From assembly GCA_937934285.1 (NCBI GenBank), contig CALHAT010000026.1:1-59776 (forward strand): DNA of 59,776 nt, read 5' to 3'. The position numbers were made by a program, and so were the translations under genes. This document shows positions 5,992 to 51,687 of the stretch, piece by piece (the first letter of the stretch is position 1; every line of letters starts with the position of its first letter). The notes under the pieces are model-generated. The model ran no database searches and was not told the origin of the DNA. It worked only from the letters and a program-made list of their open reading frames with translations. The stretch is from Minisyncoccota bacterium. Lineage in GTDB: Bacteria; Patescibacteriota; Minisyncoccia; UBA6257; HR35.

Positions 5992-6554
5992 TTGATCAAT
6001 GCTTCAGTTAATCTCAATAAAGGAATCTTTAAAATAACTCTACCTATTATTCTTTCTCTTTTAACGGGTCCCCATTTTCGAGAATCATAACTAACTTCCC
6101 GATTATCTCCTAAAACAAAATACTCATTTTTACCTAAGGTTAAGTCGATTTTTCCTGAAGTATAGTGATTTTGAAGATAATCTTCCTCGAGAACAAAACC
6201 ATTGGAATTTTCTTCATTGAAAATCATAATTTTATTTTCATTAATAACAATCCTTTCTCCAGGAAGACCTATTACTCTTTTAATATAAAAAACTTTATCA
6301 TCGAAAGGAGGATGAAAAATGATTATTTCCCCTCTTTTTGGATCGCGTAAAAAAAAACTTAATTTATCAATAACTAAATAATCCCAATTATGGAAATTAG
6401 GCTCCATACTTTCACCTCTAACTAAAAATGGTTCCGTTATAAAAAATCTCACTGGAACAACTATTAAAATAAATAAAAAGGCGATTTCAATAAAATCAAA
6501 AATTAGTTGTCTTTTCATTCTAAAATTATACCACAATTTTATCATCAATTTCAA
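5988..6554 (-). CDS. lepB: Signal peptidase I
   Basis: GESMEPNF (catalytic Ser box), KRVIGLPGE and GDNREVSYDSR. The maximal ORF is given here. The internal Met at 6518 (MKRQLIF...) would remove the 29-nt overlap with infB and may be the real start. Confidence 0.85.
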   Translation of the reverse strand: MKLMIKLWYNFRMKRQLIFDFIEIAFLFILIVVPVRFFITEPFLVRGESMEPNFHNWDYLVIDKLSFFLRDPKRGEIIIFHPPFDDKVFYIKRVIGLPGERIVINENKIMIFNEENSNGFVLEEDYLQNHYTSGKIDLTLGKNEYFVLGDNREVSYDSRKWGPVKRERIIGRVILKIPLLRLTEALIK

Positions 6555-8272: not shown

Positions 8273-9118
8273 TTATAACATAAAATTAAAATAGATTTTA
8301 GTCAAAGATTCACCAAAAAGAATTGCTCCTAAGGTTCCTAAAAAAATAAAAGGAACAAAAGGAATTGGTTTCTTTAAGTTTTTCTCTTTTAAGATAAAAT
8401 AGATTCCACAAATTGAACCCAAAAAAGAACTGAGAATAATTGCTAAAAGACCATCGCCGGGTCTTAAAAAAAGCCCTAATAAAAAAGCAATCTTAACATC
8501 ACCAAAACCAATTCCTTTGCCTTGAGTAATTAAAAAAATCAAAAGAAGAATTGAACTTAAAAAAAATGGAGTAATTAAAGTTTCGAATTTCCCAAAGTTA
8601 AAAAGATAATTTAAAAGATAAGAAAAGTCACGAGGAAGGATTAAAAATTTTTTTTTAGCTAAATTAAATAAAATGCCTGTTAAGACACCAAAGAAAATTA
8701 ATCGATCATCAACCAAATAAGTTTTTAAATCATATAAAGCTAAAACAAAAAGAATACTAAAAAAAATTAAATAAAAAAGAAATTCTACAACAAATATCGG
8801 GTTTAGTGTTGTTTTTAGTGAAAAAGCTAAAAGGAAAACCCAAAAACCAGTAAAAATTTCTACCAATGGGTATCTGAAAGAAATTTTATTTTGACAGACA
8901 CGACATTTTCCTTTTTGGAAAATGAAGCTCAAAATCGGAATTAATTCATACCATTGTAAAATTTTCCCACAAGAAGGACACTTTGACCGAGAAAATAGAA
9001 AATCTTCGTTTTTTTCTAGTCTTAAAGCTATATTATTTAACAAAGAGCCCAGAAATAAACCTAAAATAAAAAAAAACATTAAAATCCAAAACGAGCACGA
9101 CAAATTTGATTTCGCCAA
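8273..9118 (-). CDS. pilD: Prepilin peptidase (A24 family, PilD-like)
   Basis: N-terminal zinc motif CPSCGK...CRVCQNKISFRYPLVE, a polytopic membrane profile and GIGFGDVK (Asp box). An alternative start at 9079 forms a TAATG junction with the upstream stop. Confidence 0.88.
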   Translation of the reverse strand: MAKSNLSCSFWILMFFFILGLFLGSLLNNIALRLEKNEDFLFSRSKCPSCGKILQWYELIPILSFIFQKGKCRVCQNKISFRYPLVEIFTGFWVFLLAFSLKTTLNPIFVVEFLFYLIFFSILFVLALYDLKTYLVDDRLIFFGVLTGILFNLAKKKFLILPRDFSYLLNYLFNFGKFETLITPFFLSSILLLIFLITQGKGIGFGDVKIAFLLGLFLRPGDGLLAIILSSFLGSICGIYFILKEKNLKKPIPFVPFIFLGTLGAILFGESLTKIYFNFML

Positions 9119-10335
9119 AATCTACAAGGGGCATCATTTTTACCTAAAACTTGAATAGTTTTTTCATAGAGAGGATGATTTCGCCAATCTCTTTGAGTTT
9201 GCACACAGAAACCCAAACGGCAATAATAATCATAAACCTTTAAAGAAAATTGCCGACAGTTATTACTGGGATTGACATCTGTTATTGGATTATTATTATT
9301 ATTAACTAAACAAGCAGTAACTGAATAATTATAAGCATTTTGAAATATATATTCCTCTTTAACTTCCTTAGGATAAGAAGAATTAAATTGTGATTCAATG
9401 CTTTTTGTTTCATAAGGTGAAGCTGAAATATCTTCGGGCTTTATAAATATTCGTAGCTTAGAAGAAGGACAATTGCCAAAATTACATTCTCCTTTAGCAG
9501 AAAACTCAACAGGTCGATTTCTTTGAGTTTCTGGACATTGAAGAATTGTTTTACCTTCTATTTGATTAATATTCATATAATCAGTAGCTGCTGTAGTTGA
9601 AGGTGGATATTGATAATTTGGGTTTCTTGAAAGATAATCTGAAATATAAGAAATGTCTGGAGTATTGTTTTTGCAAATAAAAGAACGAATATCAAGTTTT
9701 GTTACGGCAACATCAAAACAATTATTTGGATCTGGTAAACAGGTATTTTCTTGGTAAGTTGAACAGTCTTGTCTTATACAAGTTCGTACTGCTGGTCTAT
9801 GAGTAGGAGGACAACCACCTGTTCCACAATTACCTGTAATTGACCAATTACCACAAGATGGATTACAAGTTGGAGGTGGAGGAGGTGGTGGAGGAGGTGG
9901 TGGCGTGGAAGTTGGCGTGGAAGTTGGTGGAGAAGATCCTCCTGTTACAGTTATACTTCGGGAAGAACATTCATAGGTGAAGGATTCTCCAGCAACCCTA
10001 CACACAACAGTAGCTCGATAAGGTCCATAATTTCCTGGATTTTGATAAGTATAATTACAAGAAAAATTATTAAAAGTGCAGGGTCCGTTCCAGGATACGC
10101 TACAATTTGAAGAATTTGGAGAAACATTAAAGGTAACGGTTAATGGTGCTGATCCACTTGTCGGTGAAGCTGAGAGAGAGCATGACTGTTCACAAGCAGG
10201 TAAGAAAATTCCTTTTTCAAAAGTGAGTGGTTTGCCTAACAAATCAAAAAAAGGTCTGAAAATAAAAGCTTCGGTTATTAAAGGCAGGATTAGTAATAAA
10301 GAGGTTATAATAAAAATAAAATTATTATTTTTCAT
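9079..10335 (-). CDS. Secreted PKD-domain protein with a poly-proline linker and a Cys-rich C-terminal region
   Basis: Signal peptide. PKD-like segment SASPTSGSAPLTVTFNVS...YTYQNPGNYGPYRATV. A run of 11 Pro follows a TSTP x2 repeat. Many Cys lie downstream. GC is locally much higher than in the flanks. Confidence 0.7.
   Translation of the reverse strand: MKNNNFIFIITSLLLILPLITEAFIFRPFFDLLGKPLTFEKGIFLPACEQSCSLSASPTSGSAPLTVTFNVSPNSSNCSVSWNGPCTFNNFSCNYTYQNPGNYGPYRATVVCRVAGESFTYECSSRSITVTGGSSPPTSTPTSTPPPPPPPPPPPTCNPSCGNWSITGNCGTGGCPPTHRPAVRTCIRQDCSTYQENTCLPDPNNCFDVAVTKLDIRSFICKNNTPDISYISDYLSRNPNYQYPPSTTAATDYMNINQIEGKTILQCPETQRNRPVEFSAKGECNFGNCPSSKLRIFIKPEDISASPYETKSIESQFNSSYPKEVKEEYIFQNAYNYSVTACLVNNNNNPITDVNPSNNCRQFSLKVYDYYCRLGFCVQTQRDWRNHPLYEKTIQVLGKNDAPCRFWRNQICRARFGF
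9871..9927 (-). repeat. Low-complexity coding repeat: (CCN)11 poly-Pro tract plus a 12-bp x2 direct repeat
   Basis: On the plus strand, tggaggtggaggaggtggtggaggaggtggtgg (9871-9903) is followed by cgtggaagttgg x2 (9904-9927), which encodes TSTP-TSTP. Confidence 0.9.
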
Positions 10336-11218
10336 TTTTATTTATTATACTATAAATTTCTGCAATTTTTAAATTAAGGGATTCTCTGTCAAGTCCTTCA
10401 GCAATTTTAAGATAGCTTAAACCACTGATAATTTCTTTAGTTTTATTATAAAATTCTAAGGCTTTTTGCCATTCACCGTTTTTTTCATAAGCCAAAGCTA
10501 AATTAAAAGCAATGCCGGCTTTAATGTTTTCTATCATTTGTAAGGCTAATTTAGGATCATTATTAGGATAAGCTTGTAAGTAATCATTAACAGTTAAGTT
10601 TTGAGATTTTACAAAAGCTTTTTCTAATTCTTGAATAGCTAAATCATATCTACCTTGATTTAAATGAATAACTCCTAAACCATTTAAGCTCCAAATACTT
10701 TCCGGTTTTTTTTGATTCACAACTCTCATTATCTCTTCAGCTTTATCAAGCTTGCCCTGAGAAAATAAAATCCAAGCAAGATTTAAATAACCTGCCCAGC
10801 TATCTGTTAAAGATATTTCTTGACGAAAATCTTTTTCAGCTTTATCCCATTGCCGAAGATAGCCATAAATAATTCCTCTTTCATGATAAGCATAGGGATG
10901 ATTGGTAAGCTCTATTTCTTTAGTAAAGTAATTTAAAGCCTCATTTAAGGAAACAAAGCTTTGATTGAAAAAGAAAAATTTTCCTAATTCTAAATTAATG
11001 CCCGGATAGCGAGGATTTAATTTATAAATTTTTTTAAAATATTTAAAAGCCTCTTCATAATCACCTTCAGCTTTTAATCTCAGAGCGATTTCAAATAGAT
11101 TTTTAATGGATATTTGGTTTGATTTTAGTTTAATTAATTTATCTGTTAAAAAAAATATACTCAGACTTAAAAAAATTACCACCAGTAAATAATACTTTTT
11201 ATTATCCTGATGATTCAT
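10325..11218 (-). CDS. Membrane-anchored TPR-repeat protein
   Basis: N-terminal TM helix, then repeated TPR-like 34-mers (AEGDYEEAFKYFKKIYKLNP, QGKLDKAEEIM, QGRYDLAIQELEKA, NGEWQKALEFYNK). Confidence 0.75.
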   Translation of the reverse strand: MNHQDNKKYYLLVVIFLSLSIFFLTDKLIKLKSNQISIKNLFEIALRLKAEGDYEEAFKYFKKIYKLNPRYPGINLELGKFFFFNQSFVSLNEALNYFTKEIELTNHPYAYHERGIIYGYLRQWDKAEKDFRQEISLTDSWAGYLNLAWILFSQGKLDKAEEIMRVVNQKKPESIWSLNGLGVIHLNQGRYDLAIQELEKAFVKSQNLTVNDYLQAYPNNDPKLALQMIENIKAGIAFNLALAYEKNGEWQKALEFYNKTKEIISGLSYLKIAEGLDRESLNLKIAEIYSIINKNEK

Positions 11219-12346
11219 CTATTTTGATAATTCGTTTAAGACTTTTTCTAAATATCTTCGGTGGCTGGGTATAAGTAAATTTTTAGAGGCAAGTGCTTTA
11301 TTGTAATAATTTAGAGCTTCTTTTTTATCACCTTTAATTCTATAAATATCACCAATAACAATCCAGGCCGGAACTAACTCATTACTGCCGGGCCATTGAT
11401 ATTGCCAACCAGAAAAATTTTCTTTTAAATTACTATTATTTTCTATAATTTTGGGTATTAGGCTTTCAGCTTTAGCAAGTTGTCCTGCTTGAAGATATCG
11501 TTCGGCTGCTTCGCCATAAACTAAAACACGAAACCATCGAGGAAAATATTGGAAATTGTTCTCTTCAGATAATAAATTATCAAAAATTTCAACAATTTCA
11601 TTTAAATTATTGGGGACAGTGAATAAAGAAACATCTAATTTTTTTTCTTGAAGTAATAAATAATAAATATTTATTTTCTTCTGGTCCATAGCTGGAATTC
11701 GCTGAGGATAACTATAATTCTGACTAAAAAGTTTTAATCTTTCTTTATAATCCCGGGGTCTTATAATTAAAAAGTACCGTTGTGTCGCTTGCCATAATTG
11801 GTCAAATTCCCCATAATCTAATTCATAATTATTACCCAAAATAAAATCGTGGGCAATAACTTTTTTTCTTTTGTCATCTAAGCCAATAATCAATCGGTAT
11901 TCTAACCAATTTCCAGGATAATCTAAGCTTGTTTTTTGCAAAACAATAACCGGCGTTCTTTCTTGAGGATTAATAAACTTATATAAATCTTGGATACTAT
12001 TTGCTTGTAAAACTTGAGCATCAAATCCTGTTTGAAAAAGAGCAAAATGAGCCAGACTGTACATTGAAATTGCTCTAAGACCAATATTTTGAGGATAAGT
12101 TTTTAAAGAATTCTTTTCCTGATTCCAATAATCATAAACCATATCTAAAACAGCTTTAGCTGAGGTTCTAATTGGTCTACCATTATACAGATCAGCAGCA
12201 TTAAAACCAACATTATAAAAAGTATAATCCGGAACATTAGGAATAATATAAGAAGTTGTTCCTTTAAAATAAAACTTATAGGAAAGAAAACCAACTAATA
12301 GGATCCCAGCTAAGGTTGTTACAATTATTATAATTAACCTATTCAT
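11219..12346 (-). CDS. Membrane-anchored hypothetical protein: N-terminal domain reminiscent of a C39-like peptidase fold (no Cys in the whole protein), with a C-terminal TPR-like region
   Basis: TM anchor MNRLIIIIVTTLAGILLVGF. The layout ...TPVIVLQK...EYRLIIGLDDKRKKVIAHDF...YGEFDQLW resembles C39_2-type domains. The C-terminal part has TPR-like helices (GDKKEALNYYNKAL). I found zero cysteines on inspection. Confidence 0.55.
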   Translation of the reverse strand: MNRLIIIIVTTLAGILLVGFLSYKFYFKGTTSYIIPNVPDYTFYNVGFNAADLYNGRPIRTSAKAVLDMVYDYWNQEKNSLKTYPQNIGLRAISMYSLAHFALFQTGFDAQVLQANSIQDLYKFINPQERTPVIVLQKTSLDYPGNWLEYRLIIGLDDKRKKVIAHDFILGNNYELDYGEFDQLWQATQRYFLIIRPRDYKERLKLFSQNYSYPQRIPAMDQKKINIYYLLLQEKKLDVSLFTVPNNLNEIVEIFDNLLSEENNFQYFPRWFRVLVYGEAAERYLQAGQLAKAESLIPKIIENNSNLKENFSGWQYQWPGSNELVPAWIVIGDIYRIKGDKKEALNYYNKALASKNLLIPSHRRYLEKVLNELSK

Positions 12347-12367
12347 ATTAATTGTTGTATTTATTAA

Positions 12368-12847
12368 TTAAAGATTGGTACAACATGGGTAGGGGGGGTC
12401 CTCTGGACCACCTGAATCATCACACCCTCCGCAACATGATGGACTACTTCCTCCGCATGAATCAAAACAACCTTCACAACCTTCGGAACCTTCGGAACCT
12501 TCACAACCTTCGGAACCTTCGGAACCTTCGGAACCGCTCCCACCTTCGGAAGATGGGCCACTACATTCAACAAGAGCAGCATAAAGATCACCTTGATTAC
12601 CTCCTAAAGCTAACAAATTTTTATTTATTTTTTTAAAACCACATCCACCTCCACTACTTCCGCCTTCGACATGATCTGCCGAGGCTATATTCCAAGATTG
12701 ATATCTTTCTATAGAATAGTGGTTTTTTTTCTTTAGATAATTTAAAAAATTGTTAAATGGAGCTAACAGAAAAAACAAAATTAGAACAAATAGAATTTTT
12801 AAAAAATTTCCTATTTTTAAAGATGTATTAATAGCTTTTTTCACCAT
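12368..12847 (-). CDS. Candidate YcaO substrate or RiPP-like precursor: N-terminal basic plus hydrophobic segment and an acidic Cys/Ser/Gly-rich repeat tail
   Basis: It is the longest of three overlapping ORFs and the only one with a promoter. The last 66 aa (ECSGPSSEGGSGSEGSEGSEGCEGSEGSEGCEGCFDSCGGSSPSCCGGCDDSGGPEDPPYPCCTNL) hold 10 Cys, 14 Ser, 1 Thr, 17 Gly and 14 Asp/Glu, with no basic residue. It lies directly downstream of the ycaO and dehydrogenase genes. Confidence 0.6.
   Translation of the reverse strand: MVKKAINTSLKIGNFLKILFVLILFFLLAPFNNFLNYLKKKNHYSIERYQSWNIASADHVEGGSSGGGCGFKKINKNLLALGGNQGDLYAALVECSGPSSEGGSGSEGSEGSEGCEGSEGSEGCEGCFDSCGGSSPSCCGGCDDSGGPEDPPYPCCTNL
12469..12549 (-). 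repeat. 9-bp in-frame tandem repeat (7 near-perfect plus 2 degenerate units) encoding (G-S/C-E)n
   Basis: The plus-strand unit is aaccttc[a/g][c/g], tiled head to tail from 12469. Units 1-3 are identical to units 4-6, giving a 27-bp higher-order repeat. Confidence 0.9.
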
Positions 12848-12859
12848 CTTAATAAACTA

Positions 12860-12887
12860 ATTTTAACAAATTTTTTTATTTTGTCAA
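12860..12887 (-). promoter_or_regulatory. Sigma-70-type promoter for the Cys-rich ORF (TTGACA-N16-TAAAAT with a TGn extended -10)
   Basis: The minus strand reads TTGACAaaataaaaaaatttgtTAAAAT inside the 59-bp gap between the dehydrogenase stop and the ATG at 12847. The -10 lies only about 13 nt from the ATG, so the leader would be very short. Confidence 0.55.
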
Positions 12888-12906
12888 CAAAAGTTTTCCA
12901 CAGGCT

Positions 12907-13626
12907 TTATTTACCTATTAATAAAGTATAAACTAAGGATTCTTCAAAACCGTCAATATCTAATAGTTTTTTTTCTATCTCGTCATCATTGGTGCCAGCT
13001 AAAGCGCAGCATTTCAGTCCCAAAGCTGTAGTTAATAAATAAATATTTTGTCCGATATGGCCCGCTTCTTGCAAAATAAATCTATAACCCCTTTGACCAT
13101 ATTTGTTTAAAGTTCGCCAAAAAACACCAGTTAAAAAAATAATCAGTGATGAATCCTGGGCAAATTCATAAAAAAAATATTTTTTAAATTCTTCCTTATC
13201 AATTCCGGGATTAAATAAAAATTCAAGCTGATGATTTTTAACATCATAATGAAAGATACCCTTTTCTAACCCAGAACCTGGTTGGAGAATTAAACAATAA
13301 GTTTCAATGGGATATCTACCGCCACCTGAGGGTATAGCTCTTTTACCATTTTCTTGCAAACCACAAGAATACTTTAAAAGTAAAGACAATTCTTCTAAGC
13401 TGATTGGTTTTTGCGTAAATTCTCTTTGAGTCTCTCTTTTTTTTATAGCTTCAAACAAATTAAATTCTTTAAAATTGTCAATCAATTTGATTTTCTTAGC
13501 TCGTGGATATGATTTATAATAAATAGTTTTCCATTCCTCGGGCCATAAAGTTGAATCCTTGGGAATCTTTTTATAAAATTTTTTTGTATATTGATGAAAT
13601 ATATGAGCTAAAGGTATTTCTTTCAT
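12907..13626 (-). CDS. SagB-type (nitroreductase-fold, FMN) dehydrogenase
   Basis: RETQREF, PSGGGRYPIETY, GIFHYD, RTLNKYGQRGYRFILQEAGHIGQNIYL and ALGLKCCALAG match the SagB-type dehydrogenase domain pattern. The start overlaps the ycaO stop (ATGA). Confidence 0.8.
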   Translation of the reverse strand: MKEIPLAHIFHQYTKKFYKKIPKDSTLWPEEWKTIYYKSYPRAKKIKLIDNFKEFNLFEAIKKRETQREFTQKPISLEELSLLLKYSCGLQENGKRAIPSGGGRYPIETYCLILQPGSGLEKGIFHYDVKNHQLEFLFNPGIDKEEFKKYFFYEFAQDSSLIIFLTGVFWRTLNKYGQRGYRFILQEAGHIGQNIYLLTTALGLKCCALAGTNDDEIEKKLLDIDGFEESLVYTLLIGK

Positions 13627-15089
13627 GGAAAAAGATGAGGCAAGGAATTAATTTCTTGACGAATTAATCTTGGGCTTTTTTTTATTATGTCGCTCTCCCA
13701 GAGATAAAGAGGTAACAAGTTGGGAATTATTGCTTTAGCTGAATAATAACCTATTTTTTTTAAAACAGGATTATTTGACAAAAAGTAATAAACTTCATAA
13801 CCAGGTCCCAGACTTTCTATTTTTTTAACGACAAAGTTTAGCTCCTCTTTTAAAGAATTAAAAATTTTAAAACCGTCTTTATAAAGCTCATAAAAGCTTA
13901 ATTGGGGAGAATTGATAAAAAAATCCAGTTTACCTTTCATTTCTGAATTAGCCCATAAACGTAAACGATAATCTTGATTAACCCGAGAATCATAATAAGG
14001 AATAAGATTTGCTTCTTTAAAGGATGGAAAAGGTTGACGATAACTTATCCAATAAACCACGCTCCAAGCTTCAACAAAAGCCCTTTTTATAGCTTTTAAG
14101 GGATGGAGATTGCAACCTGCTCCCAAGCTATAACAGACTCCATTTTCTGAGGGATCATGAATTATTACTGAAAAAGAAGGTATTGCTAAATCAGTCGTAC
14201 AATCTAAAACATAAACTTCCAATCCATATTTAGTAGTTGTTTCGTAAAGAAATTGGAATTCTTGGTCAGGAACGGTTTGGGGGTCTATTCTTTTCGGAGT
14301 TATTTTATTAAGCCAGTGATAAAGAAAAGAATCTCTTTGAACTAATTCATAAACAGCGTATAAAATAGCTCCCTCCTGACTCCAATAACCGGCACAACCA
14401 TTAGTATTAGATTCAATAAGATGCGGCTCATCTTCAGCGCGTTTGTAATTCCAATAAACATATTGAGCAGGAATATAAAAGGTTTCATTAGTGCTCCATC
14501 TTTTCACTCTCTCCCAGTAAAATTTACTGTTTTTATCAAAATAGCGATCAGGAAAAATTCTTTTTTGCTCATCATCAAAACCGCTAATATTTTCTGGATT
14601 TATAACCTTAAATTTTCTTTGTAAATTTTTTAAAGAATCATAAATTAAATCTTTTCGAAAATAAATAGTTAGTGGAAATCTTTCTAAAAACTCATAAATC
14701 GCTTGATTAATGGTTTGTTCTAAATTTAACCCAAAGCCAGAAGCATAACCTCTTCGAGGTATATTACCGTCAGTTAGAACATAATCATAACTGGCTTTAA
14801 GTGAAAATCGATAAAAAAATGGCAAACCGTTTATTTTCTCATTGTGAGCAAAAAAGTTTTTTATAATTTTTTCTTTTAAAAGAGCTAAGAAAATTTTATT
14901 ATTATTTAACACTTCTAAATAATCATTGTCTCTTTCGTAAATTACAAGACCATCAATTCCGGTATTACCTTCTATTATCGTATAAACATTAGAAAATAAT
15001 TTATTTTGATATTTTAAAACTTCTTTAAAATTAACCAACTCAGCAACTGGTTTTGTCCGATAGCGACTTGTCCACAGAATTTTTTCCAT
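13623..15089 (-). CDS. ycaO: YcaO-domain protein (ATP-dependent backbone amide activation, cyclodehydratase-type)
   Basis: GYASGFGLNLEQTINQAIYEFLERF, ESNTNGCAGY, AVYELVQRDSF, LAIPSFSVII and a Pro-containing extreme C-terminus (SLPHLFP) match YcaO hallmarks. No fused E1-like domain is present. Confidence 0.85.
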   Translation of the reverse strand: MEKILWTSRYRTKPVAELVNFKEVLKYQNKLFSNVYTIIEGNTGIDGLVIYERDNDYLEVLNNNKIFLALLKEKIIKNFFAHNEKINGLPFFYRFSLKASYDYVLTDGNIPRRGYASGFGLNLEQTINQAIYEFLERFPLTIYFRKDLIYDSLKNLQRKFKVINPENISGFDDEQKRIFPDRYFDKNSKFYWERVKRWSTNETFYIPAQYVYWNYKRAEDEPHLIESNTNGCAGYWSQEGAILYAVYELVQRDSFLYHWLNKITPKRIDPQTVPDQEFQFLYETTTKYGLEVYVLDCTTDLAIPSFSVIIHDPSENGVCYSLGAGCNLHPLKAIKRAFVEAWSVVYWISYRQPFPSFKEANLIPYYDSRVNQDYRLRLWANSEMKGKLDFFINSPQLSFYELYKDGFKIFNSLKEELNFVVKKIESLGPGYEVYYFLSNNPVLKKIGYYSAKAIIPNLLPLYLWESDIIKKSPRLIRQEINSLPHLFP

Positions 15090-15097
15090 TTTTTAAT

Positions 15098-16027
15098 TTA
15101 CAATTTTAAAATCGCTTTAGCATTATTATAATAAATTTTTTTTAAAACATCCACTGGCAAAGCTAAACCTTCATAATATTCTTTAGAAGCAAAAAGGATA
15201 TCTTGATAATATTCTTTTTGCAAAATGGACAAGTCTAAAATAATTCTTTTAACAAACCATAAAAAATTTTTTTGCGGATCATCATCAATAACAATATCTG
15301 CAGCCCATAAAATTTTATCCTGAAACTTTATTAAAAAATTTCTGAACATATCTTTATTAAATTCAACAATGGTCATATATTTCTTAATTCCATAACCCGA
15401 AGAAATATCTATAAAAACATTAGAATATTTACTTAAAAGATATTCGCAAAGACTCAAACTTACTTTTTCGTCTAAGATACAAGAAGCATAATGAGCTAAA
15501 ATAAAATTTACTGTTGAGAATTTTTTAGCGATTTCCTCAAATTGATTTAAAAATTTATTATTTTTATGAAAATCAATATGCAAAAGAACGGGTACTTGAT
15601 ATTTATTAGCGACTTCATAAACTTTATACATATTTTCACTATTAATATCAGCAATAAAATTTTTAGTTTTTTCCGAATAAAACCAATCAATAAACTTAAT
15701 TCCTTGAGCACCATTTTTTATAGTTTCTTCTATGAATTCAGCTGCTGTCGTATCACCAGAATAACAGGTAGTAAAAATTATTATTCTTTCCCCAAATTTC
15801 TTCTTAAAATCAAAAAGACGGTAAAGGTGGTTTTTAAAAATAGGGTTATAAGGAGGCCAGTCAGTTGGTAAAAAAACAGCTTTTTCAATATTAAGAATCC
15901 TCATTGCCCAAATAAAAGATTCAATATTTCCTCCTGATCGATAATGCTCGTGAATAGAGATTTTTTTAAAATTTAAAAAATCAGTATCTAAAAATACTTT
16001 TCCCAAAACATTTAAAAAATCTTTCAT
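15098..16027 (-). CDS. Metal-dependent TIM-barrel amidohydrolase (amidohydrolase_2-like)
   Basis: N-terminal SIHEHY (HxH), mid-protein VLLHIDFH and FILAHYA, C-terminal LWAADIV and a terminal YYNNAKAILKL typical of this family. It sits 2 nt after the pilC stop and 8 nt before ycaO. Confidence 0.68.
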   Translation of the reverse strand: MKDFLNVLGKVFLDTDFLNFKKISIHEHYRSGGNIESFIWAMRILNIEKAVFLPTDWPPYNPIFKNHLYRLFDFKKKFGERIIIFTTCYSGDTTAAEFIEETIKNGAQGIKFIDWFYSEKTKNFIADINSENMYKVYEVANKYQVPVLLHIDFHKNNKFLNQFEEIAKKFSTVNFILAHYASCILDEKVSLSLCEYLLSKYSNVFIDISSGYGIKKYMTIVEFNKDMFRNFLIKFQDKILWAADIVIDDDPQKNFLWFVKRIILDLSILQKEYYQDILFASKEYYEGLALPVDVLKKIYYNNAKAILKL

Positions 16028-16029
16028 TT

Positions 16030-17235
16030 TTAGAAACTCTGAACATATTTAGTCAAAGTTAGTAAAGGAATAAGCAAAGAAGCTTCTAAAAGACCCAAAG
16101 CGGCTCCTAATAAAAGTATTAAAATTGGCTGTAAGGCTTCACTTAGATTAGTAACTTGATTTTCAACTATTTCATTGTAAAAATTATAAAGAGTTAAGGT
16201 AACCTCAGCAAGCTCGCCTGTCTTTTCAGCGGTTTTAATACCTTCAATCATAAAACTTTGAAAAAGGTCAGGGAAATTTGATAAAGATTCACTGAGAGGT
16301 GAACCTTTTTTGACATCTTCAACGATATATTCAAGAGCGGAAACATATAAGGGATTATCAAAGCTATCTTTGATAATTTCCAAAGCTTCAACGATTGGAA
16401 CCCCACCCTTGCTTAAGTGATATAGTGATTCTAAAAATTGAGCCGAATAATTGTTTTTAATTAAAGATCCCAAAATGGGTACATCGGAGACTAATTTAAA
16501 TAAGGTTGCCTTGCCCTCTGAAGTTTTAAATAGATAATCATAAAAATAAAATCCCAAAAGAATTAATGCGCCCAATATAAATAGTCCGAATTGTAATAGC
16601 AAATCAGCTATTGATTTAAAAATTTTAGTAATTAAAGGCATAGGTACATTATTTTCGGCAAAAATCGCTACTATTTGAGGAACAACATAATAAAATAGAG
16701 CGAAAAGAACGCCAAGAAAAATAAAAACAACAATAATAGGATAGATTGAAGCTTGAATAAGTCTATTCTTAAATTTAAATTGAGCATATAGATGTTGCGC
16801 GAGATATTCTAAAGTTTCATCTAAAACACCAACTGATTCTCCAATTTTAATCATTCCTACATAATAAGAATCAAAAATATCAGGAAATCTTGCTAATGAT
16901 TGAGAAAAGGTGATTCCGGAAATCAAATCATTATAAATCTCAACTAAAATCGAACGAAGAGCAGAATTTGGCATAGCTTCAGAAAGAGCTCTGATTGATT
17001 CATCTAAAGGTGTTCTTGATTTGATAAGATAAGAAAGTTGTTTGGTAAAGAAATAAATATCTCTTATGTTGGGTTTAAAAAGATAAGAAACTAAACTTAA
17101 TCGTTTTTCTGATAAATAAGTAACTAAAAGTTCCTGATTTTGTAAAATCTGTAAAGCTGCCTCTTTGTTATCAGCTGAAATAATTCCTTCTTTAAGTTTT
17201 CCTTCCCGAGTATAAGCTTTAAATTCAAACTGCAT
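16030..17235 (-). CDS. pilC: Type IV pilus platform protein PilC (GspF family)
   Basis: Two GspF-type repeats, three TM segments and the typical 401-aa length. It sits directly after pilT. Confidence 0.88.
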   Translation of the reverse strand: MQFEFKAYTREGKLKEGIISADNKEAALQILQNQELLVTYLSEKRLSLVSYLFKPNIRDIYFFTKQLSYLIKSRTPLDESIRALSEAMPNSALRSILVEIYNDLISGITFSQSLARFPDIFDSYYVGMIKIGESVGVLDETLEYLAQHLYAQFKFKNRLIQASIYPIIVVFIFLGVLFALFYYVVPQIVAIFAENNVPMPLITKIFKSIADLLLQFGLFILGALILLGFYFYDYLFKTSEGKATLFKLVSDVPILGSLIKNNYSAQFLESLYHLSKGGVPIVEALEIIKDSFDNPLYVSALEYIVEDVKKGSPLSESLSNFPDLFQSFMIEGIKTAEKTGELAEVTLTLYNFYNEIVENQVTNLSEALQPILILLLGAALGLLEASLLIPLLTLTKYVQSF

Positions 17236-17237
17236 TT

Positions 17238-18299
17238 TTATTCTTCAAGTAAATATTTAAGTTTCGTTGGATTTAAACTAAATTCAATAGCTTTTTCTAA
17301 AGAAATCTCATCTAAACGAACTAAGTTAACCAAGGATCTTTCTAAAGATATCATCCCTTCGCTTAAACTGGTATCAATCACGCTATCAATCTGATAAATT
17401 TTGTTTTCCCTTATTAAATTCCTAATAGCATTATTAGCTATTAAAATTTCACAAGCCGGAATTCGACCTCCTCTTATTCTCGGTACTAATCTTTGGGAAA
17501 TAATTCCAATTAAGGTGGAGGCTAATTGTAGTCTTCCTTGAGTTTTTTGATTTTCAGGCAAGACATCAACAATTCGATCAATTGTTTGGGAAGCAGAATT
17601 CGTATGTAATGTTCCCAAAACCAAATGTCCAGTTTCCGCCGCAGTTAAAGCAATTGAGATTGATTCCGGATCTCTTAATTCACCAATCATAATCACATCC
17701 GGATCTTGTCTTAAGGCTGCTCTTAAAGCGCGGTGCCAATTAGGAGAGTGAATAGGAATTTCTCTTTGAGAAATAACTGCTTTATCAGGATTAAATACAT
17801 ATTCAATTGGTTCTTCAATGGTTATAATATGAGATTGTCTTTGATGATTGATTGTATCTATTAGAGCTGCTAATGTTGTTGATTTACCCATACCAGCTGG
17901 ACCGGTTACTAAAATAAATCCTTGTCTTTTTTCAACAAATTCATTTAAAATGGGGGGTAAGTTTAATTCCTCAATACTTTTAATTTCATTAGAAATATAA
18001 CGAAAAGCTCCTGCCCATCCTTGAAATTGAAGATAAATATTCGCTCGAAAACGGATATTTTCTTCTAAGGAAAAAGAAAAATCTATATCTTTAAATTTAT
18101 TTAGCTGAGAAAACAAAACTTCATCCAATAAACTGAAAAGCATTGTTTCTGTATCTTCGGGAACTAAAACATCAAATTGAGTCAATGGGAAAATCTCTCC
18201 ATCTTTTCTCATTAAAGGAAAGCTGCCTGGTAAAATATGCAGGTCTGAAGCTCCTTGCTTTGATATAAAATAGAGATATTCTTTTAGTTTTTGATGCAT
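17238..18299 (-). CDS. pilT: Twitching-motility retraction ATPase PilT
   Basis: Walker A GPAGMGKSTT, Asp box, Walker B DPDVIMIGELRD and His box GHLVLGTLHTNSA. About 350 aa with no N-terminal GspE N-domain. Confidence 0.88.
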   Translation of the reverse strand: MHQKLKEYLYFISKQGASDLHILPGSFPLMRKDGEIFPLTQFDVLVPEDTETMLFSLLDEVLFSQLNKFKDIDFSFSLEENIRFRANIYLQFQGWAGAFRYISNEIKSIEELNLPPILNEFVEKRQGFILVTGPAGMGKSTTLAALIDTINHQRQSHIITIEEPIEYVFNPDKAVISQREIPIHSPNWHRALRAALRQDPDVIMIGELRDPESISIALTAAETGHLVLGTLHTNSASQTIDRIVDVLPENQKTQGRLQLASTLIGIISQRLVPRIRGGRIPACEILIANNAIRNLIRENKIYQIDSVIDTSLSEGMISLERSLVNLVRLDEISLEKAIEFSLNPTKLKYLLEE

Positions 18300-20002
18300 T
18301 AAGCGGATTTGAAAACTTCTTCTAAAGAAACAAGACCTTTGCTTGCTTTTATTATACCATCAAGTCTTAAGGTGATAAAATTTTGTTTTTTTAGAACTTC
18401 TAAAATTTCAGGTTCGCCTTTGTGTTCTAAAATAACTTTAGCAATTTCCTTAGTTATCTCGAACATCTCAAAAATAGCTGTTCTACCTATGAAACCTCGG
18501 TGATGACATTTTTCGCAACCCTTGCTATTAAAACATTTTATGGTTAAATTTTTATAATTTTCCGGCGCTTCCTGTAAAACTTTCTCAGCTTCTAATCTCA
18601 ATTCTTCGGAACAATCCTTTTCTTCTAAACAGTTTGGACAAAGAAGTCTAACTAATCTTTGAGCAATAACCAAATTAACGGTTGACGGAATAAAATAAGC
18701 TTTAACGCCCATATCCAAAAGTCTGGGAATAGCTCCAGCGGCAGTATTAGTATGTAAAGTTGAAAAAACTAAATGTCCTGTTAAAGCAGCATGAATAGCT
18801 AATTCAGCTGTCTCTTCATCGCGGATCTCTCCAACCAATATAACATCAGGATCCTGCCTTAAAATTTCTCTCAATCCTCGAGCAAAAGTATAACTAATCT
18901 CTGGTCTTACTTGCGATTGATTGATGCCTTGAATTTTATATTCAACCGGGTCTTCCAAACTAATAATATTAATATTTTCCTTATTAATTTCTTGAATCAA
19001 AGCGTAAAGAGTGGTCGTTTTTCCTGAACCAGTTGGTCCAGTTACTAAAATCATTCCATAGGGCTTTTTCAAATTAGCACGCATTATTTCGTAATGAAAA
19101 TCAGATAATCCTAATTCAGTAATTTTTTTAAGCCCAATTAAAGGATCTAAAATTCTGATAGCTACTTTCTCACCATTAATTGTCGGTAAAATACCTACTC
19201 GGAAATCTATTTCCCGTCCTTGAACTATAGCTCGGAACCGACCATCTTGAGTAATTCTAGTTTCATCCAGTCTCAAATTAGTTAAAATCTTTACTCGGTT
19301 AACCAAAGGTAAATGAATATCCCTTGGCAGATAAAGCATAGTTTTCAAATCACCATATAACCTAAATCGAACACGGGCTTTATCACTTAAAGGTTCTAAA
19401 TGAATATCTGAAGCATTCAAAGCTACGGCCTTTCTTAATAGGAGTTCGAAAAGTTGAATAATCGGCGCTTCTTGCACACCAACAACTTCTTGAAAAACAA
19501 ATGGCTTTTCGACTTCTATTTTTTTACCAGAAGAACTGCGGAAATTTAGAATATGTTTTTTAACTTCCATCTCGAAATCATAATAATCTTCTAAATGAAG
19601 ATAAAAATCTTTAACGGAAATTAAAAAAAGTTGGATATCTGCTTTTAAATTATGTTTAAGAGGAGCAATTACTCTTGATTGAAAATCAGAAATATCAGGA
19701 TCAACTACTCCTAAATAAAGAATTTTATTTTTAAATTCTAAAGGGAGAATTCTAAAATTGCGCGCCGTAGCTTCAGGAATCAATTTCAAAACCTCTGGGG
19801 GTATTTTCTCGTCAAGAGTAAATTTTTTTATTGGTAGATTATAAATTTTAGCTTTGAAATCCAGAAATTCTTCAGCAGGAATTAAATTTTTATTAAATAA
19901 ATAATCTTCCAAAGGGTAGTTAGAAATTTTTGCTTCTAAAATCCAATCTTGAATTGAGGGGTATTTTTCTTTAAAAAAGGAAATTACCTCTTCATCTTTC
20001 AT
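18299..20002 (-). CDS. pilB: Type IV pilus assembly ATPase PilB (GspE family)
   Basis: GPTGSGKTTT, DPDVILVGEIRD and GHLVFSTLHTN, plus the tetracysteine CPNC...CEKC motif and an N-terminal GspE-N domain. Confidence 0.9.
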   Translation of the reverse strand: MKDEEVISFFKEKYPSIQDWILEAKISNYPLEDYLFNKNLIPAEEFLDFKAKIYNLPIKKFTLDEKIPPEVLKLIPEATARNFRILPLEFKNKILYLGVVDPDISDFQSRVIAPLKHNLKADIQLFLISVKDFYLHLEDYYDFEMEVKKHILNFRSSSGKKIEVEKPFVFQEVVGVQEAPIIQLFELLLRKAVALNASDIHLEPLSDKARVRFRLYGDLKTMLYLPRDIHLPLVNRVKILTNLRLDETRITQDGRFRAIVQGREIDFRVGILPTINGEKVAIRILDPLIGLKKITELGLSDFHYEIMRANLKKPYGMILVTGPTGSGKTTTLYALIQEINKENINIISLEDPVEYKIQGINQSQVRPEISYTFARGLREILRQDPDVILVGEIRDEETAELAIHAALTGHLVFSTLHTNTAAGAIPRLLDMGVKAYFIPSTVNLVIAQRLVRLLCPNCLEEKDCSEELRLEAEKVLQEAPENYKNLTIKCFNSKGCEKCHHRGFIGRTAIFEMFEITKEIAKVILEHKGEPEILEVLKKQNFITLRLDGIIKASKGLVSLEEVFKSA

Positions 20003-20019
20003 TTTTCCCTTATAAAAAA

Positions 20020-20292
20020 TTAGAACAAGCTGTCCCGGCCAATTTCTTCATTTTTTATTAGAGGTAAAATCAAAGTTTCGACGGGTAAATTTTTTAAATA
20101 ATAATTAGCATCTTTAAAAGAGTAATTATTTACAAATTCTATTCTTCTCCTTAAATCCAACATCAATGGTGTTGGTTCTGACGGTTGCTTTAAAATTCTA
20201 AAATACCAAAAGGCATAAATAATAAGTCCGATTATAATTATGAACCAAAAAGTAAAAATTAAAAAATTTATTAAAAAAGACCTATTTTTCAT
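20020..20292 (-). CDS. Small single-pass membrane protein in the pilus operon
   Basis: 90 aa with one N-terminal TM helix. It lies between the PilO-like gene and pilB and overlaps the upstream stop by 4 nt. Confidence 0.5.
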   Translation of the reverse strand: MKNRSFLINFLIFTFWFIIIIGLIIYAFWYFRILKQPSEPTPLMLDLRRRIEFVNNYSFKDANYYLKNLPVETLILPLIKNEEIGRDSLF

Positions 20293-21340: not shown

Positions 21341-21352
21341 TATACTTATATT

Positions 21353-51685: not shown

Positions 51686-51687
51686 TT

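What the first reader, a model, noticed from the sequence alone, without database searches (positions are those of the whole stretch)
12368..12847. Atypical candidate substrate: pilin-like N-terminus and long leader fused to a highly acidic (G-S/C-E)n Cys-rich tail
Seen: only one Met (the start) exists in the 159-aa frame, so the whole ORF is the unit. The N-terminus is a basic 13-mer ending in Gly (MVKKAINTSLKIG), followed by about 20 hydrophobic residues (NFLKILFVLILFFLLAPF). That has the architecture of a class III (prepilin) signal. G|NFL resembles the G|QFLIEV and G|FTLIEV motifs of the bona fide pilins at 29.8-31.2 kb, but the Glu at +5 is missing (Ile there, Lys at +4). A mid-region LLALGG looks like a double-glycine cleavage motif. 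The tail has 14 Asp/Glu and no Lys/Arg, and it ends PPYPCCTNL. Classical thiazole/oxazole-modified precursors are short and soluble, and the ones I know lack a tail this acidic. Inference: the product may be a membrane-inserted or pilus/surface-displayed modified protein, or possibly a metal-binding tail, rather than a diffusible microcin. The prepilin peptidase encoded four genes downstream is an obvious candidate processing enzyme.
Basis: partly seen in the sequence, partly recalled or inferred. Interest (0 to 1): 0.8.

Follow-up and report, generated by a model that had tools for sequence, protein, structure and literature searches.

The report
Membrane-leader azole-peptide precursor in CPR bacterium
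This small gene most likely encodes the precursor of a YcaO/SagB-modified (thiazole/oxazole) peptide from an ultra-small CPR bacterium; its family has an unusual membrane-type leader and a highly variable acidic, cysteine-rich tail, and it is not a pilin-like protein.

Summary
It has no detectable sequence homologues. However, 52 other distinct small ORFs sit on the YcaO strand, nearly all just downstream of related YcaO genes in CPR/Patescibacteria, and share its layout. That layout is a basic N-terminus, one hydrophobic helix, a 7-32-residue linker, a conserved [A/V/S/T]-x-A|[D/Q] motif (ASA|D at residues 55-58 here), and a Gly/Ser/Cys/Glu/Asp core almost free of Lys/Arg. A near-identical strain (99.9% over 4.7 kb) matches codons 1-92 exactly and diverges from codon 93. 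This is the conserved-leader, hypervariable-core pattern of RiPP precursors.

The prepilin reading fails. Gly13 is Tyr in the nearest homologue, Glu+5 is absent, and pilus genes flank few loci. The double-glycine reading also fails. The neighbouring "C39-like" protein has no cysteine, and the window holds no C39-ABC exporter.

Best explanation: a linear azole peptide precursor whose leader doubles as a signal or anchor. CPR YcaO-nitroreductase clusters were already reported (Sharrar 2020). The membrane-type leader, the A-x-A motif and the family-wide acidity appear not to have been described. I rate it a new variant of a known kind, of moderate interest.

The parts
12860..12887 (-). Promoter-like site TTGACA-16 nt-TAAAAT with TG extension. 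The -10 hexamer ends 12 nt before the ATG, which implies a very short or absent 5' leader.
   Evidence: 11 of 12 matches, the best site in the 5.2 kb scanned; 100% identical in strain L170.
12368..12847 (-). ORF159, the putative precursor peptide (whole gene including stop codon).
12755..12847 (-). Residues 1-31: basic n-region (K3, K4, K11) plus the hydrophobic helix F15-F31. Read as a membrane-targeting or anchor part of the leader.
   Evidence: KD19 2.32, KD17 2.72. Conserved in L001 and family-wide.
12686..12754 (-). Residues 32-54: polar, Lys-rich linker (NNFLNYLKKKNHYSIERYQSWNI).
   Evidence: the linker is 26 residues from helix end to cut site here, and 7-32 (median 20) in the family.
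12674..12685 (-). Residues 55-58, A-S-A-D: the family-conserved [AVST]-x-A|[DQ] motif. Read as the probable leader/core boundary, following the -3/-1 small-residue rule.
   Evidence: 53/53 with the loose motif or its variant, 40/53 with strict A-x-A-[DQ]. (4.9% in 265 control ORFs). (the HMM alignment ends on this motif).
12572..12673 (-). Residues 59-92 (HVEGGSSGGGCGFKKINKNLLALGGNQGDLYAAL): a segment specific to this lineage and invariant between strains. It contains LLALGG (12599-12616). Its role is unknown; it may be a pro-region or a second recognition element.
   Evidence: identical in L170. Absent from the other members' cores.
12368..12571 (-). Residues 93-159 plus stop: hypervariable acidic Gly/Ser/Glu/Cys core with 10 Cys, 14 D/E and 0 K/R.
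   Evidence: divergence begins exactly at codon 93. (GC 52%). (different tails in L168 and L167).
12469..12535 (-). Tandem DNA repeat (9-bp period; a 27-bp unit x2.3 at 100% identity) encoding (G-S-E / G-C-E)n.
12907..13626 (-). SagB-type FMN dehydrogenase (azoline to azole).
   Evidence: TIGR03605, 135.8 bits against a cut-off of 78.4. (Nitroreductase). No TM segment.
13623..15089 (-). YcaO cyclodehydratase.
   Evidence: PF02624, 174.8 bits. (TIGR03604, 192.9 bits, below the 219 cut-off). (AF2 pLDDT 88; best structural matches LynD and TruD). (conserved C-terminal P-H-x-F-P).
15098..16027 (-). Amidohydro_2 protein. It occupies the position held by a 640-aa AMMECR1-domain protein in most relatives. 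A possible accessory or partner; role unknown.
11219..12346 (-). Membrane-anchored protein with a Cys-less papain-like (C39/C70-like) domain plus TPR. Probably a non-catalytic binding or scaffold partner.
   Evidence: C39_PA2778, E 2e-8, partial. (no conserved Cys or His at the catalytic positions). (AvrRpt2 fold match, TMt 0.53, plus TPR). (0 Cys).
10325..11218 (-). Membrane-anchored TPR protein, conserved downstream partner.
9079..10335 (-). Secreted Cys-rich protein (25 Cys, poly-Pro linker). It is conserved after the TPR gene in the nearest clade; whether it belongs to the system is tentative.

Best explanation
ORF159 is the precursor of a linear azole(-ine)-containing peptide (LAP/TOMM-type RiPP). 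It belongs to a CPR-wide precursor family whose leader is a signal- or anchor-like membrane helix rather than a soluble leader.

Proposed sequence of events:
1. The gene is transcribed from its own strong promoter. The site is shown; its function is inferred.
2. The cytoplasmic YcaO, possibly helped by the upstream Amidohydro_2 protein (an AMMECR1-domain protein in relatives), cyclodehydrates Cys/Ser residues in the Gly/Ser/Cys-rich C-terminal region. The SagB-type flavoprotein then oxidises the azolines to azoles. This step is inferred from conserved gene linkage and composition.
3. The basic N-terminus and the hydrophobic helix insert N-in/C-out. The Lys/Arg-free polyanionic tail is translocated by Sec or YidC, since no dedicated ABC exporter is present. 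This step is inferred from the charge distribution.
4. The peptide is cut after the conserved small-x-Ala motif (A55-S-A57|D58), either by signal peptidase I or by an unidentified protease. Alternatively it stays tethered. This step is inferred and is the weakest one.
5. The membrane-anchored Cys-less papain-like/TPR protein and the TPR protein act outside the membrane as binding or scaffold partners. This step is speculative.

The core is hypervariable between strains and evolves partly by triplet-repeat slippage. That pattern suggests a role in cell-cell or host interaction, antagonism or cation binding.
For: Gene linkage. SagB (TIGR03605, above its cut-off) and YcaO lie directly upstream on the same strand. 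The YcaO model is confident and closest to the azoline-forming heterocyclases LynD and TruD.

Family. Of 10,612 ORFs of 40-260 aa in 166 related loci, 64 have the helix plus G/S/C/acidic-tail layout. Of these, 63 are on the YcaO strand, and 54 of 75 eligible loci with a YcaO of at least 30% identity have one 0-5 kb downstream. Only 2 of 62 loci with more distant YcaOs have one.

Shared motif. [AVST]-x-A|[DQ], or a variant, is present in 53 of 53 members against 4.9% of 265 control ORFs.

Sequence-level membership. A leader HMM built without the window sequence ranks ORF159 first among 165 window ORFs (E 5.8e-4), aligned from K11 to D58.

Core composition is typical of LAP cores. The pooled family cores have G 28.7%, S 17.3% and C 10.0%, plus 14.8% D+E and 0.2% K+R.

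Conserved leader and hypervariable core. Strain L170 shows 5 mismatches in 4,730 nt, then diverges exactly from codon 93 while keeping the composition. Relatives L167 and L168 end in different GE/Cys-rich tails.

Selection on the tail. GC is 52% against about 30% background.

Compartment logic. YcaO, SagB and the amidohydrolase have no TM segment. ORF159 and all three downstream proteins have an N-terminal one. None of the 10 further large ORFs scanned in the window is a PCAT/ABC exporter.

Precedents. CPR LAP clusters with a putative 84-aa precursor have been reported (PMC7298704). Bufferins are RiPPs modified in the cytoplasm, then exported by Sec and cut by signal peptidase (PMC11626156).
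Against: There is no chemical evidence of modification.

No E1-like/RRE 'C' protein was identified, and the YcaO scores below the TIGR03604 SagD cut-off.

The spacing between the helix and the A-x-A motif is 26 residues here, and 7-32 (median 20) in the family. From my own knowledge of signal peptides, a canonical signal-peptidase-I c-region is about 3-9 residues, so this spacing is too long. The protease is therefore unassigned.

The flanking charges of ORF159 itself are balanced: +3 before and +3 after the helix. Its topology is therefore not clear-cut.

Three members have no Cys, and two of those have almost no Ser/Thr. Azole formation therefore cannot be the whole story for the family.

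Residues 59-92 of ORF159, with three Lys and a hydrophobic patch, are atypical for the family and remain unexplained.

The leader HMM match is weak (13.4 bits).
Confidence: 0.6

Rival explanations
1. Prepilin-like substrate. The N-terminus is a class III signal cut after Gly13 by the PilD encoded four genes downstream, and the modified protein is built into or displayed on a type IV pilus.
For: ORF159 has K-I-G|N-F-L followed by a hydrophobic run. The cluster lies between pilC and pilD. Pilus genes also flank the cluster in L015, L091 and L146.
Against: Residue +5 is Ile, not Glu, and +4 is Lys. The nearest divergent homologue has Tyr in place of Gly13. Only 10 of 53 members have a Gly within 3 residues of the helix start, and only 1 of 53 fits G-x4-E. 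There is no pilin or N-methylation Pfam or NCBIfam hit. A true pilin in L091 (MKKQKGFTLIELLVV) shows what the real signal looks like in these genomes. Pilus genes flank only 3 of the ~100 relatives' loci, plus the window and its near-identical strain L170. The family-conserved motif lies about 20 residues after the helix, not before it.
Confidence: 0.03
2. Double-glycine leader. LLALGG(83) is the cleavage site, cut by the adjacent C39-like protein, which releases NQGDLY...CCTNL.
For: The next gene has a weak, partial match to a C39 family (NF033920, E 2e-8) and a papain-like fold. LLALGG and the following 9 residues are invariant between the two strains, and variability starts soon afterwards.
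Against: The 375-aa protein has no cysteine at all. In its family, 14 of 16 members have none, and no Cys or His column is conserved at the expected catalytic positions. None of the 10 further large ORFs scanned in the window is a PCAT. The motif is absent from the other 52 family members. From my own knowledge of double-glycine leaders, the usual hydrophobic residues at -4, -7 and -12 and the Glu at -8 are not matched (here A, N, K and K). The ORF has 8 GG dipeptides, so a GG is expected by chance.
Confidence: 0.05
3. Not a RiPP. The ORF encodes an unmodified, membrane-tethered, polyanionic Cys-rich surface protein (for example a cation- or metal-binding or surface-charge protein) that merely travels with the YcaO genes, or it is a tethered protein that is never cleaved.
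For: The layout of a TM helix plus a low-complexity Cys/Gly tail resembles small Cys-rich membrane proteins. One member gave a weak hit over its TM region to PF12669, FeoB-associated Cys-rich membrane protein (E 0.2). Some members lack Cys or have almost no heterocyclisable residues. The A-x-A spacing is non-canonical for signal peptidase.
Against: The link to YcaO is strict in strand and position across dozens of divergent CPR lineages and is absent near distant YcaOs. The conserved-leader, hypervariable-core pattern is typical of RiPP precursors. The core composition matches LAP cores. The gene has its own strong promoter directly after the modifying enzymes.
Confidence: 0.17

Closest known systems
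CPR linear azole/azoline peptide (LAP) clusters reported by genome mining (Sharrar et al. 2020, mBio, PMC7298704)
   Same: The phylogenetic group is the same (CPR/Patescibacteria). The core gene set is the same: YcaO, a nitroreductase-type dehydrogenase, a 'peptidase' and a small putative precursor (84 aa in their example) next to YcaO. They found 110 clusters in 93 genomes.
   Different: That paper does not mention a signal or membrane segment in the precursor; the word 'signal' does not occur in its text. It also does not mention the A-x-A motif, the acidity or strain-level hypervariability. ORF159 is about twice as long. Its neighbouring 'peptidase-like' protein has no Cys. An Amidohydro_2 gene replaces the usual AMMECR1-domain gene.
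Microcin B17 (McbA/McbBCD) and other LAPs (plantazolicin, phazolicin)
   Same: The precursor has a Gly/Ser/Cys-rich core and is encoded beside a YcaO cyclodehydratase and an FMN dehydrogenase. McbD is among the structural matches of the YcaO model.
   Different: From my own knowledge, McbA has a short soluble leader bound by an E1-like partner, a neutral core, export by a dedicated ABC pump and leader removal by TldD/E. Here the leader contains a TM-type helix and the core is polyanionic. No E1-like partner, ABC exporter or TldD/E-type gene was seen in the cluster.
Bufferins (MNIO-modified, Sec-exported RiPP metallophores; PMC11626156)
   Same: The logic is the same: Cys-derived heterocycles are installed in the cytoplasm on a long precursor that carries an N-terminal export signal. 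Export then uses the general pathway and cleavage occurs at a signal-peptidase-type site. They are described as 'rare examples' of RiPPs with Sec signals.
   Different: The enzyme family differs (MNIO/DUF692 plus DUF2063, not YcaO/SagB). Bufferins are folded small proteins with a canonical signal peptide. The CPR peptides are low-complexity and acidic, and the motif lies 7-32 residues beyond the helix.
Type IV pilins / class III signal peptides (PilD substrates)
   Same: A short basic N-terminus is followed by a hydrophobic helix. In this one sequence a Gly precedes the helix, and pilus genes are neighbours.
   Different: There is no Glu at +5. The Gly is not conserved. There is no pilin domain hit. 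The conserved processing-like motif lies after the helix, not before it.
Double-glycine leader peptides processed by C39 peptidase domains (PCATs)
   Same: A GG dipeptide follows a Leu-rich stretch, and the neighbouring protein has a papain/C39-like fold.
   Different: The neighbour lacks the catalytic Cys and has no ABC transporter module. The motif is not shared by the family.

Membership tests
LAP/TOMM precursor peptide (YcaO + SagB substrate) | Encoded next to a YcaO cyclodehydratase and an FMN (SagB-type) dehydrogenase | tested here: met
   YcaO PF02624 at 174.8 bits. SagB TIGR03605 at 135.8 bits against a cut-off of 78.4. Same strand, 59 nt upstream. The linkage recurs in 54 of 75 related loci.
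LAP/TOMM precursor peptide (YcaO + SagB substrate) | Core rich in Cys/Ser/Thr (heterocyclisable) and Gly | tested here: met
   the window core has G 25.5%, S 15.7% and C 10.8%. The family pool has G 28.7%, S 17.3% and C 10.0%.
LAP/TOMM precursor peptide (YcaO + SagB substrate) | Conserved leader and variable core | tested here: met
   identical through codon 92, divergent from codon 93 in a strain that is 99.9% identical; leader layout conserved and cores unalignable across the family.
LAP/TOMM precursor peptide (YcaO + SagB substrate) | Leader-binding partner (E1-like 'C' protein or RRE) for the cyclodehydratase | tested here: inconclusive
   No E1-like or RRE family hit among the cluster proteins. 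The YcaO has a 117-residue N-terminal extension of lower confidence. The upstream partner is Amidohydro_2 here and an AMMECR1-domain protein in relatives.
LAP/TOMM precursor peptide (YcaO + SagB substrate) | Azole or azoline heterocycles actually present in the product | not testable with these tools
   Requires mass spectrometry of the native or heterologously produced peptide.
Type IV pilin-like protein (class III signal, PilD substrate) | Conserved Gly at -1 immediately before the hydrophobic segment | tested here: not met
   Gly13 is present in the window and in the near-identical L170, but it is Tyr in L001. Only 10 of 53 members have any Gly within 3 residues of the helix start.
Type IV pilin-like protein (class III signal, PilD substrate) | Glu at +5 and an N-methylation motif or pilin domain | tested here: not met
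   Residue +5 is Ile. Only 1 of 53 members fits G-x4-E. There is no Pfam or NCBIfam hit. The true pilins of the window have G|FTLIEV and G|QFLIEV.
Double-glycine leader / C39 peptidase system | C39 peptidase with catalytic Cys (and His), usually fused to an ABC exporter | tested here: not met
   The 375-aa neighbour has 0 Cys, and 14 of 16 family members have none. No catalytic column is conserved. None of the window ORFs scanned is a PCAT.
Double-glycine leader / C39 peptidase system | GG/GA/GS motif conserved at the leader-core junction | tested here: not met
   LLALGG is absent from the other 52 members. The conserved junction motif is [AVST]-x-A|[DQ].
Sec-type (signal peptidase I) signal peptide | Basic n-region and hydrophobic h-region | tested here: met
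   a mean of 2.96 K/R in the 12 residues before the helix. KD17 is at least 1.9 in all members and 2.72 in ORF159.
Sec-type (signal peptidase I) signal peptide | Small residues at -3 and -1 of the cleavage site | tested here: met
   A55-S-A57|D58 in ORF159. The motif is in 53 of 53 members against 4.9% of controls.
Sec-type (signal peptidase I) signal peptide | Short c-region (about 3-9 residues) between the h-region and the cleavage site | tested here: not met
   The spacing is 26 residues in ORF159 and 7-32 (median 20) in the family. The canonical c-region length comes from my own knowledge. No signal-peptide predictor was available.
CPR LAP cluster (Sharrar et al. 2020) | CPR genome with YcaO + nitroreductase + a small adjacent precursor | tested here: met
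   The closest YcaO relatives are all Patescibacteria/CPR MAGs. Gene content. Description of the published clusters. The organism of the window itself was not named by any tool.

The most novel reading that the evidence does not exclude
CPR bacteria make a previously undescribed class of YcaO-modified peptides whose leader is itself a membrane signal or anchor. Polyanionic, azole-bearing, strain-hypervariable tails would be pushed across the membrane by the general Sec/YidC machinery. They would then be released at a conserved A-x-A site or left tethered at the cell surface, with Cys-less papain-like/TPR proteins as extracellular handlers. This would be the first signal-peptide-type leader in the YcaO RiPP world. 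It could also be a surface or host-interaction or cation-binding factor of episymbiotic bacteria, possibly coupled functionally to the adjacent type IV pilus.
Probability: 0.35. Interest if true: 0.72.

Novelty: new variant of a known kind. Interest (0 to 1): 0.55.

Why it matters
CPR/Patescibacteria are tiny, mostly uncultured episymbionts with very few recognisable secondary-metabolite genes. The YcaO-SagB cluster is one of the few that are widespread among them, and its product is unknown. If the precursors carry a built-in membrane or export leader and a polyanionic, strain-variable core, three things follow. First, it would explain how these genomes export a RiPP without a dedicated transporter. 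Second, it would extend the recently found 'Sec-leader RiPP' principle (bufferins) to YcaO chemistry. Third, it points to a surface or host-interaction role rather than a classical diffusible antibiotic. The motif and layout defined here (helix, linker, [AVST]-x-A|[DQ], K/R-free G/S/C/E/D core) also give a simple rule for finding these precursors, which current Pfam and NCBIfam models miss.

Tried and rejected
1. Sequence homology searches with ORF159. The word-seeded search found only the ORF itself. The exhaustive phmmer search found the ORF itself plus collagen-like G-X-Y repeat proteins. The pairwise alignment showed those matches are periodic and compositional, so I rejected them as homologues.

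2. Pfam and NCBIfam scans of ORF159 and four family members gave nothing significant. The weak hits were TolR, HxsA4, Hok and FeoB-associated Cys-rich protein. They cover only the TM helix or low-complexity parts, so I rejected them.

3. The neighbour as a C39 protease. I pursued this with an alignment, PDB sequence searches that returned TPR hits only, an AF2 model and Foldseek. The fold is papain-like, but there is no Cys, so I rejected it as a cysteine protease.

I used a 4-sequence alignment instead, which gave a moderate model (pLDDT 74).

5. Correlation between SagB presence and core Cys count. Only 14 loci against 3 were usable, and they are not phylogenetically independent (p = 0.02). 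I treat this as inconclusive.

6. Search for further strain variants through exact SagB and 375-aa protein look-ups returned only the L170 contig again.

7. Cluster look-up for organism or names returned no names.

8. Literature searches for YcaO precursors with TM or signal leaders found no description. They found only the bufferin precedent and the Sharrar 2020 genome-mining report.

9. A terminator scan between the genes found none.
Full report
**Observation**

It runs 12368..12847 on the minus strand, is 159 aa long, starts with ATG and has Met only at position 1.
- The N-terminus is MVKKAINTSLKIG followed by NFLKILFVLILFFLLAPF.
- LLALGG is at residues 78-83.
- Residues 93-159 hold 14 Asp/Glu, 10 Cys and no Lys/Arg, and the protein ends PPYPCCTNL.

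On the minus strand the gene order is pilM-like ... pilB, pilT, pilC, Amidohydro_2, YcaO, SagB-type dehydrogenase, ORF159, a 375-aa TPR protein, a 297-aa TPR protein, a 418-aa Cys-rich protein, and prepilin peptidase. Two real pilins with G|FTLIEV and G|QFLIEV lie at 29.8-31.2 kb.

**No sequence homologues, but many positional counterparts**

A word-seeded search of 5.8 billion proteins returned only the ORF itself. An exhaustive phmmer search of 1.84 billion representatives added only collagen-like G-X-Y repeat proteins. Their match to the (G-S-E)n tail is periodic and compositional, not homology.

The adjacent YcaO does have relatives. Their contexts, plus 160 loci fetched with the YcaO alignment, showed a small ORF of the same layout in the same place. 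The best YcaO matches are all CPR/Patescibacteria MAGs: Saccharibacteria, Parcubacteria, Sungii-, Morani-, Lloyd-, Lipton-, Adler-, Kaiser- and Woesebacteria.

I screened all 10,612 ORFs of 40-260 aa in these loci for an N-terminal hydrophobic helix plus a Gly/Ser/Cys/acidic tail.
- The screen gave 64 hits, and 63 were on the YcaO strand, although the opposite strand holds more ORFs.
- 54 of 75 eligible loci with a YcaO of at least 30% identity had a hit 0-5 kb downstream. Only 2 of 62 loci with more distant YcaOs did.
- One hit was a genuine pilin (MKKQKGFTLIELLVV...), which I removed. This left 52 distinct sequences, or 53 with the window ORF.
- The same screen on the window flags ORF159 alone among 128 small ORFs.
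- A leader HMM built from the other 52 members ranks ORF159 first of 165 window ORFs (E 5.8e-4). The alignment runs from K11 through the helix to D58.

**Anatomy of the family**

- N-flank: basic, with a mean of 2.96 K/R in the 12 residues before the helix.
- Helix: one hydrophobic helix.
- Linker: polar, 7-32 residues (median 20; 26 in ORF159).
- Motif: [A/V/S/T]-x-A followed by D or Q, for example ANADVP, AHADTP, ASADA or AQAQSCW, with AQ[AG]xCC in a few members. It is present in all 53. The strict form A-x-A-[DQ] is in 40 of 53. Among 265 control ORFs with an N-terminal helix from the same loci, the rates are 4.9% and 3%. In ORF159 the motif is A55-S-A-D58.
- Core: median 37 residues (21-102; ORF159 is the longest). 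The pooled composition is G 28.7%, S 17.3%, A 10.4%, C 10.0%, E 8.3%, D 6.5%, K 0.1% and R 0.1%. 48 of 53 cores have no Lys/Arg.

G-E-X triplet repeats are common, for example in L124, L103/L104, L009 and L105. In ORF159 they come from a 9-bp-period tandem repeat that includes a perfect 27-bp unit x2.3. The features that set ORF159 apart are its length and residues 59-92 (HVEGGSSGGGCGFKKINKNLLALGGNQGDLYAAL).

**Conserved leader, hypervariable core**

Contig L170 comes from another sample and carries pilC, Amidohydro_2, YcaO, SagB and the start of the ORF. Over its first 4,730 nt it differs from the window at 5 positions. This identical stretch includes the promoter and codons 1-92 of ORF159. 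From codon 93 (window 12571) the two sequences diverge almost completely. The tail nevertheless stays in frame, acidic and Cys-rich: VECSGPSSEGGSGSEGSEG... in the window against EGCDFLEGGCSGCEGSQGCE... in L170.

More distant relatives end in ...GEGGEGACSI (L167) and ...QCECEQCECEGEGEGEGSDSGGCGGCGDPPVVITPIEVPKP (L168). The tail is 52% GC in a region of about 30% GC, so its composition is maintained by selection. This pattern is the classic signature of a RiPP precursor.

**Expression**

The best sigma-70-like site in the 5.2 kb scanned lies directly upstream of the ORF. It reads TTGACA-16-TAAAAT with a TG extension and scores 11 of 12. Its -10 hexamer ends 12 nt before the ATG, which implies its own promoter and a very short 5' leader.

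**Enzymes**

- SagB passes the TIGR03605 cut-off.
- The YcaO hits Pfam strongly, but its 192.9 bits against TIGR03604 fall below the 219 cut-off.
- The YcaO AF2 model (pLDDT 88) is closest to the heterocyclases LynD and TruD.
- The YcaO family keeps a C-terminal P-H-x-F-P.
- No E1-like or RRE partner was detected. In about 45 related loci a 640-aa AMMECR1-domain protein sits directly upstream of YcaO. In the window, L170 and L001 an Amidohydro_2 protein takes that place.

(a) PilD and a class III signal.
- Gly13 is Tyr in L001, the nearest divergent homologue (MAKKAFNTSLKIYSALKIL...).
- Only 10 of 53 members have any Gly within 3 residues of the helix start, and only 1 of 53 fits G-x4-E.
- Residue +5 is Ile, and there is no pilin-domain hit.
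- Pilus genes flank the cluster only in the window, its near-identical strain L170, and L015, L091 and L146.
- This idea is not supported.

(b) LLALGG and a C39 peptidase.
- The 375-aa neighbour has a partial C39-family match (E 2e-8).
- Its best non-TPR structural match is the papain-fold protease AvrRpt2 (TMt 0.53).
- It has no cysteine, and 14 of 16 family members have none. The expected catalytic His position is mostly Arg.
- The window has no PCAT among the ORFs scanned.
- The motif is absent from the other members.
- This idea is not supported. The neighbour is more likely a non-catalytic binding domain.

**Most likely mechanism**

YcaO, SagB and the amidohydrolase have no membrane segments. 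ORF159 and all three downstream proteins have an N-terminal one.
- The charge pattern is a basic N-flank and a K/R-free polyanionic core. By the positive-inside rule (my own knowledge) this favours an N-in/C-out orientation with translocation of the tail.
- The conserved small-x-Ala motif fits the -3/-1 rule of signal peptidase I. A lepB gene is present at 5988-6554. However, the motif lies much further from the helix than a canonical c-region, so the protease is not assigned and permanent tethering remains possible.
- Bufferins are the precedent for cytoplasmic heterocycle installation followed by Sec export and signal-peptidase cleavage. They are called rare among RiPPs. A 2023 review of RiPP leader proteases does not mention signal peptidase at all.

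**Comparison with what is known, and novelty**

Sharrar et al. (2020) reported LAP clusters in 93 CPR genomes, with YcaO, a nitroreductase, a peptidase and an 84-aa putative precursor. The kind of system is therefore known from genome mining. Their text does not mention any signal or membrane segment. No Pfam or NCBIfam model covers the precursors. The literature searches found no description of YcaO precursors with membrane-type leaders.

I rate this a new variant of a known kind. The gene is an unusually long member of the CPR LAP precursor family. The family's membrane-type leader, A-x-A junction motif, polyanionic K/R-free cores and strain-level hypervariability appear not to have been described.

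**Uncertainties**

- There is no chemical evidence of modification.
- The topology of ORF159 itself is ambiguous: +3 on each side of the helix.
- The role of residues 59-92 is unknown.
- Three members lack Cys, and two of those have almost no Ser/Thr, so YcaO may do something other than azole formation in some lineages.
- The link between SagB presence and Cys count is only suggestive.

Confidence that ORF159 is a YcaO/SagB-modified precursor with a membrane-type leader is about 0.6.

Noticed in passing
L005 6074-7996 and about 45 other loci (for example L002, L003, L087-L091); window 15098-16027: A ~640-aa protein with a central AMMECR1 domain (residues ~112-301) sits directly upstream of, and often overlaps, the CPR YcaO gene in about 45 loci. 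In the window, L170 and L001 an Amidohydro_2 protein replaces it. It may be a YcaO partner standing in for the missing E1-like/RRE protein. I found no report of an AMMECR1-YcaO association.
   Followed up: partly
window 9079-10335 (-); L168 2096-2533: A 418-aa secreted protein with 25 Cys and a run of 12 Pro, with no Pfam or NCBIfam family. A homologue with the same N-terminus (FIFRP..PLTFEKG.FLPAC) follows the TPR gene in L168, so it may belong to the cluster in this clade.
   Followed up: partly
window 8273-22393 (-); L015 209-2924; L091 197-4902; L146 1-681: In the window the YcaO cluster is inserted between pilC and pilD of a type IV pilus operon. Pilus genes (pilT/pilC/pilD) are also adjacent in three fairly divergent relatives but absent from most loci. 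I did not resolve whether this is inherited synteny or a functional link.
   Followed up: partly
L007 9324-9590, L105 2960 onward, L009 9531-9776: Some family members have cores with no Cys, and two have almost no Ser/Thr (DVPEGGEGGEGGEGGGPEGDS; DVPEGAEGAEGAEGAEGAEGDS). They lie in loci where no SagB gene was found within the flanks. What YcaO does to such substrates is unexplained.
   Followed up: no
L005 10442-10915 (-), L002 10778-11248 (-), L003 10816-11319 and 11455-11922 (-), L087, L091, L129: A conserved ~155-165-aa lipoprotein- or signal-peptide-bearing protein of no known family is encoded on the opposite strand between SagB and the precursor in the 'AQAQ(S)CW' clade. It is absent from the window.
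   Followed up: no
L003/L004 3113-5953; L002 2496-4403: Radical SAM/SPASM genes with small adjacent ORFs (56-133 aa), and in L002 a transglutaminase-core protein, lie just upstream of the AMMECR1-YcaO genes. This may be a second RiPP system or extra tailoring enzymes.
   Followed up: no
window 12352-12636 (+) and 12364-12591 (-): Two alternative-frame ORFs (94 and 75 aa, with repetitive NLRNLRNL and PKVPKVPKV translations) overlap the tail. They are by-products of the 9-bp tandem repeat and not likely genes.
   Followed up: partly
window 51529-53184 (+): A 551-aa protein with weak matches to the type IV secretion coupling protein family (TrwB/TraG-like) lies next to DNA primase.
   Followed up: no
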